From: Eledone cirrhosa
Taxonomy: Eukaryota
Direction of reading: 5' to 3'
Assembly: GCA_964016885.1 (NCBI GenBank)
Contig: OZ024741.1
Location: 187,550,001-187,614,000 of the forward strand
DNA length: 64,000 nt
Shown here: positions 2,494-5,446 of the stretch, in pieces
Layout of the letters: each line of letters starts with the position of its first letter
Numbering within the stretch: position 1 is the stretch's first letter
Position numbers and translations under genes: made by a program
Notes under the pieces: generated by a model
The model's database searches: none
Seen by the model: only the letters and a program-made list of their open reading frames with translations
What the model was told of the DNA's origin: nothing

Positions 2494-2805
2494 TATTAAT
2501 TCAAAATATTAACAAAATAGATATTCTTGTGATCAAGTATATTTTATTATACATATTTCAGAGGTACTGAGTTAACTTCAACAGTACATCCTCATCAGAT
2601 AAAATAAGATGATGCATGACATACCCTGACATAGTTGAAGTTAACTCAGTACCTCTGAAATATGTATAATAAAATATACTTGATCACAAGAATATCTATT
2701 TTGTTAATATTTTGAATTAATATTAATAACTCCGGAAAACCATACCTGTTGAGTGCTTCCAATCTATTGTAAAACTCATTCTTTAAACCTTGTTTAACCT
2801 TTAAA
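2494..2805. mobile_element. Fold-back hammerhead element, family H1, copy 1
   Basis: Inverted arms at about 2494-2582 and 2634-2722, a unique tail, and (TA)n on both sides. Near-identical second copy at 12249-12659. Confidence 0.75.
2540..2606 (-). ncRNA. Minimal type I hammerhead ribozyme (H1)
   Basis: Minus strand TATTTTAT-CTGATGA-GGATGTACTG..CAGTACCTCT-GAAA-TATGTA-TA-ATAAAATA: 8-bp stem I, intact core, quasi-palindromic stem III. Confidence 0.75.
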
Positions 2806-3073
2806 TATATATATATATATATATATATATATATATATATATATATATATATATATATATATATATATATATATATATATATATATATATATATATATAT
2901 ATACATATATATATATATATATACATTTTGAGTATATGTTGGTTGTATACCAACACCTAAGTATGCAGATTGGAGCGCTCAACGAGGTGCGCAGGTTGGT
3001 TTGGTTACTCCGGAGTAATGTAAAATAAAATAAAATAAATAAATCAAATGTTTAAAATTTGGCTTCGTTTGTT

Positions 3074-3128
3074 ACTGCTATATATATTTCGGTGACAGCC
3101 ATCTTTAGCTGTGACCTCTTCAGGCAGT
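3074..3128 (-). ncRNA. Minimal type I hammerhead ribozyme (H2, left arm)
   Basis: Minus strand ACTGC-CTGAAGA-GGTCACAGCT-AAAGAT-GGCTGTCACC-GAAA-TATATA-TA-GCAGT. Confidence 0.8.
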
Positions 3129-3152
3129 CCGAATTAGTGTGGTAGAGTGTGG

Positions 3153-3207
3153 ACTGCCTGAAGAGATCACAGCCAACGATGGCTGTCACCGAAATATATA
3201 TAGCAGT
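3153..3207 (+). ncRNA. Minimal type I hammerhead ribozyme (H2, right arm)
   Basis: ACTGC-CTGAAGA-GATCACAGCC-AACGAT-GGCTGTCACC-GAAA-TATATA-TA-GCAGT; predicted cleavage after A3202; one extra mismatch near the base of stem II. Confidence 0.75.
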
Positions 3208-5446
3208 AATAAACGAAGCCAAATTTTAAACATTTGACTTATTTATTTTATTTTATTTTTTTTTTATATATATATATATATATATATATATATATATATA
3301 TATATATATATATATATATATTTGTGTGTATGTGAGTTTGTGTAAAAATTGAAGAAAACATAACAAAAACTGTCATAAATGAAAACATGTTTATTTAAAG
3401 AAATTTCTTGTTCATTTTTGTCTGCTTTGTATGCTTCAATACATTTTTTTGTTTTGTTTTCTCTTACATTGAAAAAATATTATAAACCAATTTTATATTA
3501 AAATTTTCAAATTGAAAAGCGAAAAAAAATTTTTTTTTTTTTTCCAGAAAATCGAAATTATAAAAAATCATTTTCTTCTGTTAGTCATTTTTACAAAAAT
3601 TTCACAAATAAAAAAAAAATAAAAAAAATAAAAATAATAATAAGATAAAACAGGTAATCCCAAAAAAATATACCCATAAAAACTACTTGGCAGAGAAATT
3701 ACTTTAAAAATTAAAATTTCAGACAAGTGAGAATGTTCCAGAAAACACACACACGCACAATTCTCAGCTCTGTACAACGGTTCAATTCCAGTAAATATAT
3801 ACAGACAAGGACATAGGTTCAGATACTCACATATATCACGTATACACAAACACACACAACACTTTGTTATATATATGTGTGTGTGTGTGTATATATATAT
3901 ATATATATATATATATATATATATATATATATATATATATATATATATATATATATATACATATATATACGTATATATATATTCATAAATACATATAGTT
4001 ATATATATATATATATATATATATACATATATATACGTATATATATATTCATAAATACATATAGTTATATATATATATATATATATATATATATATATAC
4101 ATACACACATATATATACATACACACATATATATATATACATATATATACGTATATATATATTCATAAATATATATATATATATATATATACATACACAC
4201 ATATATATATACATATATACGTATATATGTGTATGAATATACATATTTATATGCATAGGCATACACATTCACAAACATACAATTTTATACACAATGTAAA
4301 TATCGATTACAAAACTCATATCGATTCACATGTATGTTTTTCATATTTTAACCAAACACAAGCACACACTCGCGCTCAAGAATATAATATATGTATACAC
4401 ATACATACATACATACATACATACATACATACATACATACATACATACATACATACATACATACATTTTCTATATGTAAAGTTCGTACTGTAAAGATTGA
4501 ATATATATATATATATATATATATATATAATATATATAAAACTCCCCCTTTGATATATTTTATATATATACTATTTCATTGAGATCATGTGGAAAACTTT
4601 GGTAACTTCTGTCCTCTCCCGCCAAAAATCTGTTAGGTTATTCCTATTGTTTTGTATTCACTCGTTTTGTTTTTGCGGTTATTTCTGCAGAGATGCAGTT
4701 ACTTCTGCATTTTGGGGGTTATATTTTTATTTTTTGCAGTTTTAGTTCATTTCTATAGTTTTGCACTTATTCATTTCTTTAGTTTTATGGTTTTCATTTA
4801 ATTTTCAGTTATTCTCTTCCATTTGAAGTTGTTCCTTTAGTTTTGAGGTCATTACTTTAGGTTTGATTATATATTATTTTTATATTGTTCTTTTTTCTTT
4901 AATTTTCGAAATATTAATTTTTGTTTATTATTATTTCTTTATAATAATAATCGTTATTATAATTATCATAATTTTAAATATGTTAGTGAAAAAATCATTG
5001 CACCAATGTTAGAAATTATCATTGTTGCTGTTGTTTTACTATTTTTAGCAGCTTTTGATGTTGTTTTGTAAGGGTTGGGGTTTGACGTCCCCCATCACCA
5101 CCAACCTTTATAAGGAGAGGACAGAAGATAAAAAAAAACTTGCGAAAAAAAATATTTTTTAAATTTTTTTTCGTTTTTTATTTAAAGGAAATAAGAAAAA
5201 AAAATATTTAAAAAATAATAAAGAAAAAGTATAAAAGAAAAGAAGTAAAAATATTGAAAAAAGCAAAGAAAAAAGCGTTATTTCTTACAATATGCGTGAA
5301 TTAATGAGGAATTGTTGGATTGAGCGAGAGGGTGTATGATGTTTTTAGCGTCATATAACCTATAAGGTTATAGAAGCATCATACCATTTGAAAGACATCA
5401 CCTTCCAGTAGTGTGTGTGTGTATGTGTGTGTGATGACGGGCATAC

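What the first reader, a model, noticed from the sequence alone, without database searches (positions are those of the whole stretch)
2494..3260. Fold-back hammerhead elements embedded in (TA)n tracts, from several independent families
Seen: H1 (2494-2805 and 12249-12659) and H2 (2925-3260) are long palindromes whose arms carry hammerheads with the layout stem I-CUGANGA-stem II-GAAA-N6-UA-stem I, yet their stems are entirely different sequences. H4 (38012-38130) and H5 (63551-63683) show decayed versions, and H3 has the same geometry. All are ORF-less and at most about 400 bp, and nearly all are bounded by (TA)n. Known: Penelope-like elements carry minimal hammerheads in pseudo-LTRs, often make inverted terminal copies, and some target microsatellites. 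Inference: an abundant class of non-autonomous ribozyme-bearing hairpin retroelements, or stereotyped abortive Penelope-like insertions.
Basis: partly seen in the sequence, partly recalled or inferred. Interest (0 to 1): 0.75.

Follow-up and report, generated by a model that had tools for sequence, protein, structure and literature searches.

The report
Penelope retrotransposon stubs, not new elements
The lopsided DNA palindromes are real but are short, back-to-back end pieces of very abundant Penelope-type jumping genes in an already described layout, likely made when both cut ends of a TA repeat each start a copy of the element's RNA at one of two fixed points.

Summary
The palindromes, one-sided tails and (TA)n flanks are real. 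Full type I hammerhead motifs occur in one arm each of H1a, H1b and H2 (0 in 100 shuffles). H4 is decayed locally. H5 (CAGAAGA) and H3 (no CUGANGA) deviate family-wide. All five families are pseudo-LTR ends of autonomous Penelope-like elements: copies in the same genome grade into ORFs with a telomerase-like RT and C-terminal GIY-YIG, with Hydra-clade motifs. Each family has two fixed 3' ends, A and B (B = A + 68-96 nt tail). All 72 of 72 adjacent two-armed inserts with both ends typed pair one A with one B. Apexes differ between copies. In 15 of 51 H1 pairs the arms share no sequence, which excludes simple snap-back there. Inner ends pile up at a predicted transcription start. Best reading: twin priming on the element's RNA (inferred; no RNA data). 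The inverted-copy-plus-tail layout, opposite-strand hammerheads, (TA)n targeting and an octopus Hydra family are in print. This scan has already reported the same reading on other DNA of this and other genomes.

The parts
2493..2638 (-). H1a inverted arm: pseudo-LTR piece ending at End A; carries the intact hammerhead
2540..2606 (-). H1a type I hammerhead motif (core starts at 2598; predicted cut after UA near 2548)
   Evidence: cleavage not tested
2634..2720 (+). H1a sense arm, 5'-truncated inside stem II (no CUGANGA)
2721..2805 (+). H1a tail (End A to End B); begins with a bulged ACTC..TTGAGT hairpin
2806..2924 (.). (TA)n tract between H1a and H2 (likely target)
2925..3147 (-). H2 arm with tail: hammerhead (core starts at 3123), End A near 3030, tail to End B near 2926
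3153..3260 (+). H2 opposite arm ending at End A; core present, stem II pair 2 broken
3261..3322 (.). (TA)n tract
9340..9537 (-). H3 copy: tail + arm on - (9469-9340), End A arm on + (9476-9537); no CUGANGA
12248..12414 (-). H1b inverted arm ending at End A; reaches nearly to the predicted transcription start; GAAA box mutated
12415..12563 (+). H1b sense arm with intact hammerhead motif (12449-12515, core starts at 12457)
12564..12659 (+). H1b 96-nt tail ending at End B, then (TA)n
37061..37186 (+). older H4-family palindrome
37588..37661 (+). H5-family stub: tail end (-) joined to short End A arm (+); beside an H3 arm at 37510-37557
37972..38127 (.). H4: arm with partial tail on - (38068-37972), End A arm on + (38067-38127); hammerhead decayed at this locus
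60978..61180 (+). H3 copy: End A arm on - (61038-60978), arm + 80-nt tail on + (61046-61180)
63542..63684 (.). H5 palindrome folded at the core; tail not present here

Best explanation
H1-H5 are short, head-to-head, 5'-truncated end pieces of five families of autonomous Penelope-like retrotransposons with Hydra-clade motifs, likely laid down by twin priming in (TA)n tracts. Shown: the full element reads pseudo-LTR (hammerhead-like motif) - End A - tail - End B - short leader - ORF (RT + GIY-YIG) - 3' UTR - pseudo-LTR; a two-armed insert has one arm ending at A and one at B; inner ends vary but pile up at one upstream point. Inferred: the endonuclease cuts both strands of (TA)n; each target end primes reverse transcription, one at A and one at B, each a few bases upstream of a small bulged RNA hairpin that would position the enzyme; each cDNA stops at a variable point or runs off the RNA's 5' end at the predicted transcription start; the two are joined head to head. 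When both stop early the product is a 200-450 bp palindrome with a one-sided tail. The hammerhead rides along, and a transcript through the palindrome is predicted to bury it in one long hairpin. Confidence about 0.95 for the identity and about 0.6 for the twin-priming steps.
For: ORF linkage. H1: (all 15 loci fetched at protein hits have an H1-type arm downstream of endonuclease-coding sequence, about 1.4-2.2 kb away where uninterrupted). H2: (L122, L134, L283). H3: (5 of 5 long inverted pairs). H5: (5 of 8; L269 is a whole pLTR-ORF-pLTR unit of 3259 bp). H4: (L304 runs tail into ORF). The H3 ORF model (pLDDT 93) has telomerase RT as its top two Foldseek hits (E 2e-8). Motifs RW(R/K), DKT, YRDD, CxCx5C linker, YIG, CxxC and CxH are in the alignment and match the Hydra diagnosis and the printed Hydra-1_Obim protein by eye. 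End rule: 35 of 35 adjacent H1 pairs and 37 of 37 H2-H5 pairs are A+B, with no A+A or B+B; the two H1 'A+A' calls were arms of other families. In 15 of 51 H1 pairs the B arm lies wholly within the tail, so the arms share no sequence. Arms of one insert differ by 2.8% against 5.5% between inserts and share 32 rare variants against 1.4 expected (61 pairs). 24 of 96 H1 rows end at -55..-71 from the core, 7 exactly at the A of TCACT, against 3 and 1 in the neighbouring 17-nt bins; H2 has 10 of 30 ends at -119..-126. TATA-like words lie 27-33 nt upstream in H1, H3 and H4. A bulged hairpin follows 8 of 10 family ends. In vitro, a Penelope enzyme cuts and extends both strands and starts at two internal sites that bound the tail (PMC11167929).
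Against: No RNA was seen, so the start site, the cleavage and the template strand are predictions. H2 and H5 have no TATA-like word at the hot spot. The hot spot in H1 sits in a small palindrome (CATG) that could itself favour joining. Shared rare variants fit snap-back or later gene conversion equally well, and the partner arm is the closest arm in only 12 of 61 pairs. 32 of 89 H1 copies show no partner arm (flank 1.5 kb for some, 5 kb for most). Ten rows with one untyped end were left out of the A+B count, and L048/L049 look like one duplicated locus. The hairpin descriptor was derived from these same sequences; the H2 End A copy tested and H4 End B failed it. Pfam found no RT domain in 7 of 7 ORF pieces and GIY-YIG only below cutoff (E 0.003); a PDB sequence search found nothing. 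Clade membership rests on motifs, not on a tree. Samples were picked by a core or arm word, so shorter stubs are missed.
Confidence: 0.78

Rival explanations
1. Same elements, but the palindrome forms by self-priming: one cDNA folds back and copies itself, and the endonuclease trims one end to leave the tail (close to the proposal in PMC3846280, which invoked an antisense template).
For: Many apexes are perfect or near-perfect hairpins; arms share rare variants; self-priming was proposed for head-to-head Penelope structures.
Against: In 15 of 51 H1 pairs the arms do not overlap at all, e.g. L101 has a 3.7-kb A arm and a 67-nt tail-only B arm. Either arm can be the longer one. A fold-back copy must be contained in the first arm.
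Confidence: 0.13
2. A class of non-autonomous hairpin retroelements (retrozyme- or MITE-like) that spreads as a fixed palindromic unit using its ribozyme.
For: Fixed outer ends, high copy numbers (1,949; 43; 54,367; 32,644; 25,286 exact word hits for H1, H2, H3, H4, H5), conserved cores in H1. Tail-bearing stubs with their own promoter could in principle be transcribed and re-copied. Animal retrozymes are proposed to derive from pLTRs.
Against: Apexes differ among the 30 closest H1 copies; lengths grade into full ORFs; no tandem monomers in the H4 loci checked; a read-through RNA folds into one hairpin of -235 kcal/mol that pairs off the core; H3 has no core.
Confidence: 0.05
3. Ribozyme self-cleavage sets the turning point of the palindromes.
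For: In H2, H4 and H5 of the window the apex lies at or next to the core. Earlier scan notes report a minority of ends at the predicted cut.
Against: In H1 and H2 the hot spot is 64 and about 122 nt upstream of the core, not at the cut; in H4 and H5 the core simply lies next to the predicted start; H3 lacks the core; hammerhead mutants did not affect insertion in vitro. My samples require the core word, so ends at the cut could not be counted in the sense arm.
Confidence: 0.03
4. Assembly or amplification artefact.
For: No run laid spans a whole locus; no long reads were available.
Against: Arms of H1b differ at 5 of 149 sites; ends obey the A+B rule; 65 raw Illumina reads of another sample with the same species label run from the inverted arm into sense-arm sequence at the apex (family level, RAD library, not this locus).
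Confidence: 0.01

Closest known systems
Hydra clade of C-terminal EN+ Penelope-like elements, incl. Hydra-1_Obim (Craig et al. 2021, PMC8557442; passages, section 11 and supplement rows seen)
   Same: RWK, DKT, CxCx5C linker, CxxC and CxH motifs, C-terminal GIY-YIG, (TA)n insertion, hammerheads; inverted 5'-truncated copy and one-sided tail drawn as typical for PLEs.
   Different: Tails here are 68-96 nt, not 30-40; H1 has a 1.9-kb 3' UTR; tens of thousands of copies where the paper found few families; H3 and H5 lack a canonical core. The A+B rule and the 5' hot spot were not in the parts read.
Inverted-pLTR Penelope insertions of Adineta vaga (Arkhipova et al. 2013, PMC3846280; passages seen) and D. 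virilis Penelope (PMC2377424; passages seen)
   Same: Head-to-head inverted pLTR, optional tail on one side, palindromic junction, promoter with TATA/Inr-like words in the pLTR.
   Different: Explained there by self-priming; target duplications visible there but hidden in (TA)n here; few copies.
Poseidon PAc of Anolis (Frangieh et al. 2024, PMC11167929; parts 1-2 of 4 read)
   Same: Both target strands cut and extended; two internal RT start sites bound the tail; AT-rich target; hammerhead not needed for insertion.
   Different: Another clade; tail lies inside the ORF there and upstream of the ATG here; no strand preference for start site was seen in vitro, whereas the genomic pairs here are always A+B.
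Minimal hammerheads of metazoan PLEs (Cervera and de la Pena 2014, PMC4209133; parts 1-2 of 4 read)
   Same: Type I core, long helix II, short self-complementary helix III; the paper already notes dual motifs 100-700 bp apart on opposite strands and ties most motifs to truncated PLEs.
   Different: H1 closes helix II with G.U; H4/H5 have U.U there and a longer helix III; H5 has A at position 4; H3 has no core.
Animal non-LTR retrozymes (bioRxiv 10.64898/2026.07.22.740005, part 1 of 5 read; PMC7229834 listing only)
   Same: Short, ORF-less, type I hammerhead, related to pLTRs.
   Different: Defined as head-to-tail tandem monomers; H1-H5 are head-to-head and grade into coding elements.

Membership tests
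EN+ Penelope-like element | Telomerase-like reverse transcriptase | tested here: met
   YRDD and flanking motifs; model of the H3 ORF hits TERT first; Pfam RT not detected
EN+ Penelope-like element | GIY-YIG endonuclease C-terminal in the same ORF | tested here: met
   IY..YIG..R motif after the RT in L268, L274, L104, L105; Pfam PF01541 E 0.003, below cutoff, on the H2-linked piece
EN+ Penelope-like element | Pseudo-LTRs flanking the ORF, direct or inverted, with one-sided tail | tested here: met
   L269 direct unit; inverted units L062, L101-L105, L264-L268
EN+ Penelope-like element | Hammerhead in the pLTR | tested here: inconclusive
   Met for H1, H2, H4; variant core in H5; absent in H3. 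Cleavage not assayed
Hydra clade | RWK motif and DKG changed to DKT | tested here: met
   RW(R/K) in H2, H3, H4, H5 leaders; SDKT in H1, H3, H4, H5
Hydra clade | CxCx5C linker; CxxC and CxH near the C terminus | tested here: met
   CNC-x5-C, CNLC/CDLC/CKLC and CKH/CLH/CIH
Hydra clade | Insertion into (TA)n | tested here: met
   71-93% of typed ends against 10% background
Hydra clade | Groups with reference Hydra RTs in a tree | not tested
   Reference proteins were seen only as text in a supplement; compared by eye
Naiad | N-terminal GIY-YIG | tested here: not met
   Endonuclease is C-terminal
Non-LTR retrozyme | Head-to-tail tandem monomers each with a hammerhead | tested here: not met
   Arms are head-to-head; no arrays in 50 H4 loci
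Non-autonomous hairpin element (MITE-like) | Fixed unit copied whole, same internal junction | tested here: not met
   Copy-specific apexes and continuous lengths

The most novel reading that the evidence does not exclude
Hydra-type Penelope elements integrate by deterministic twin priming: an RT dimer sits on two tandem bulged RNA hairpins, each subunit primes one cut end of the TA target a few bases upstream of its hairpin (always one A and one B), and both cDNAs can run off the capped 5' end. The genome's many thousands of stubs would then be a ready-made map of the RNA's start sites, priming sites and binding signal, and H3 would show that the route needs no ribozyme.
Probability: 0.5. Interest if true: 0.65.

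Novelty: new member of a known kind. Interest (0 to 1): 0.38.

Why it matters
As a class of element it is ordinary: known Penelope-type insertion products. Its value is as a footprint. How PLEs build inverted-plus-tail insertions is named as open in PMC8557442. The strict A+B pairing, the non-overlapping arms and the 5' hot spot give concrete predictions for the existing in vitro system. It also warns annotators that short palindromes and hammerhead hits in such genomes are pLTR stubs, not MITEs, miRNA hairpins or retrozymes.

Tried and rejected
Rfam scan at E<=1: the 150 rows shown of 254 were microsatellite and hairpin noise, with no hammerhead family among them; 104 rows were not seen. The repeat finder was swamped by (TA)n. 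Pfam gave no RT hit. PDB sequence search with a 116-sequence profile gave nothing. I first read the ORFs as Neptune-like and dropped this after the DKT, RWK and CxCx5C motifs. Sequencing runs: no RNA holder listed, which is no evidence on expression; no laid record spans a locus. Monomer folds of H1, H4 and H5 do not give the hammerhead shape as minimum-energy structure; H2 gives stems I and II; this is expected for short helix III motifs and is not decisive. No excess of A-to-G among rare H1 variants (shared 5 of 32; one-arm 22 of 225), so the editing lead was not confirmed in this sample. One search was aimed at the H4 tail-ORF junction but used upstream coordinates; it still gave more ORF-linked H4 copies. 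The Lunse 2017 paper on PLE hammerhead variants is not held, so whether the H5 core or U.U closing pairs are known active variants is open. Six literature searches found no paper stating the A+B rule or twin priming for PLEs; subscription papers and bioRxiv supplements are outside the library. Target-site duplications could not be read inside (TA)n.

Full report
Observation. The window comes from a 3.0-Gb animal genome rich in (TA)n. H1, H2 and H3 are lopsided: one arm continues into an 80-96 nt tail. A type I hammerhead descriptor hits three places (12457 +, 2598 -, 3123 -) and none in 100 shuffles; only one arm of each palindrome passes. Across copies, H4 has CUGAUGA in 34 of 40, H5 has CAGAAGA in 37 of 41, and H3 has no CUGANGA in 27 of 27; in 5 ORF-linked H3 loci and 7 H5 loci a single stray CUGANGA lay within -400..+250 of the arm word. 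In 81 H1 arms not chosen by the core word, core columns deviate 1.3%, stem I 2.5%, stem II 4.1%, flanks 6.8% and loop II 13.7% (some arms come from overlapping loci). (TA)n follows 71-93% of typed ends against 10% of random positions.

What the families are. Exact words of 22-26 bases give 1,949 (H1), 43 (H2), 54,367 (H3), 32,644 (H4) and 25,286 (H5) hits, with 0 for each reversed control; these count arms, not inserts, and depend on the word. I took the first 100 H1 hits on contig C1 in positional order (89 distinct inserts) and the first 30 hits of each other family. Many H1 copies are not palindromes but run upstream into a shared AT-rich 3' UTR. Widely spaced inverted pairs enclose ORF pieces. 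One such piece retrieves 68,217 first-look candidates, 136 scored, and all 15 loci fetched from that list carry an H1-type arm downstream. H2 links to the same kind of ORF in L122, L134 and L283, H3 in 5 of 5 and H5 in 5 of 8 long pairs fetched, and H4 in L304, L327 and L330. L269 is a whole unit of 3259 bp: pLTR, tail, leader, ATG, ORF, 3' UTR, pLTR, (TA)n. Tail-to-ORF junctions also exist for H1, H3 and H4. Pfam misses the RT, but the 710-aa H3 ORF has 402 homologues at E<=1e-30 among 7,996 scored, folds at pLDDT 93 and matches telomerase RT first. Its motifs fit the Hydra clade as diagnosed by Craig et al., whose supplement lists an Octopus bimaculoides Hydra family with (TA)n preference. 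The host taxon was not determined here; an earlier scan note calls it octopus.

Anatomy of the inserts. Each family has two fixed 3' ends, A and B, 68-96 nt apart. Of 89 H1 inserts, 51 pair A with B, 32 show one arm only, 4 have an untyped end and 2 scored A+A; those two are arms of other hammerhead families. 35 of the 51 are directly adjacent; for several of the other 16 the interval was not verified as one insert. For H2-H5, after removing partner duplicates, 9, 17, 5 and 6 adjacent pairs are all A+B; 8 rows with one untyped end were left out. In 15 of 51 H1 pairs the B arm lies wholly in the tail and shares nothing with the A arm. Total length runs from 204 to over 5,000 bp; 27 of 51 are 450 bp or shorter. 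Apexes differ from copy to copy even among the 30 best matches to H1b. Arms of one insert are closer than arms of different inserts (2.8% vs 5.5%) and share 32 rare variants where 1.4 are expected (30 of the 61 pairs were picked by similarity to H1b).

Inner ends. 24 of 96 H1 rows end 55-71 nt upstream of the core, 7 exactly at the A of TCACT, with TATAAA 31 nt further up. H2 has 10 of 30 ends at -119..-126, and H3 has 23 of 30 at -1..-18 with none between -19 and -74. TATA-like words stand 27-33 nt upstream in H1, H3 and H4 but not in H2 or H5. The names TATA and Inr rest on recalled consensus; Arkhipova et al. describe a like pair in a rotifer pLTR, and the Penelope promoter was mapped in the pLTR. 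A bulged hairpin RCTC...T(T/A/C)GAGY-RCY starts 4-7 nt after 8 of 10 family ends, with A-U and G-C versions of the first pair (descriptor made post hoc, shuffle p<=0.001 each; the H2 End B window was placed by position before an ORF).

Mechanism. Shown: identity, two fixed ends, A+B pairing, copy-specific apex, hot spot. Inferred: cutting of both strands in (TA)n, priming of each end at A or B, run-off at the RNA start, and head-to-head joining. The in vitro Poseidon work supports two-strand extension and two start sites bounding the tail, and found the hammerhead dispensable. Snap-back cannot make non-overlapping arms but is not excluded for the rest. A transcript through H1b folds into one hairpin of -235 kcal/mol, z -32, in which the core is paired, so the palindrome is unlikely to work as a ribozyme unit. 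Raw reads support fold-back junctions at family level only.

Comparison and novelty. The inverted copy with a one-sided tail, opposite-strand hammerheads 100-700 bp apart, (TA)n targeting and Hydra elements in octopus are in print. A 2026 octopus repeat paper lists Penelope families without the words hammerhead or palindrome in its main text. Six searches found no printed statement of the A+B rule or of twin priming in PLEs. Earlier notes of this scan reach the same reading on other DNA. My notes on end pairing and the start-site hot spot and the data behind the hairpin precede those look-ups, but agreement among such notes is not independent evidence. Verdict: new members of a known kind, with a testable mechanistic footprint; interest 0.38.

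Noticed in passing
window 336-620 (-), and just before the window start: A sixth hammerhead family with a well-formed core (545-469, long stem II, 3-bp helix III); two direct copies 485 bp apart; 2,570 first-look candidates at 97-98% identity; one of 12 loci has a GIY-YIG piece nearby. Partial-tandem pLTR or retrozyme-like dimer.
   Followed up: partly
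L267, L269, L176, L304 and window tails: A bulged hairpin occurs twice per element, just after each 3' end; the same word appears in tails of other families, e.g. window 20897-20964.
   Followed up: partly
L238, L253, L255 (H5 family): Folding back at the hot spot turns the family's CAGAAGA into CTGAAGA on one strand, creating a canonical core by accident; stem I is not restored.
   Followed up: no
flanks of many loci, e.g. L218, L224, L217: Stubs of different families pile into the same (TA)n tracts; at least ten further hammerhead families appear in the flanks.
   Followed up: no
window 32020-32392, 51621-51946, 53405-53745, 57488-57828, 62128-62436, 62776-63105: A ~330-bp dispersed repeat, up to 97% identical, SINE-like; two copies form the inverted pair 62128-63102.
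   Followed up: no
window 56085-57110: Tandem array of about 113-bp units related to part of that repeat.
   Followed up: no
window 58510-58977 and 14809-15150: ORF fragments resembling the end of an RTE-type LINE reverse transcriptase (resemblance recalled, not tested).
   Followed up: no
G000:C2 391.56-391.58 Mb (L099, L100): Three-copy tandem of about 3.7-3.8 kb holding a truncated H1-related endonuclease piece and pLTR, next to other PLE fragments.
   Followed up: partly
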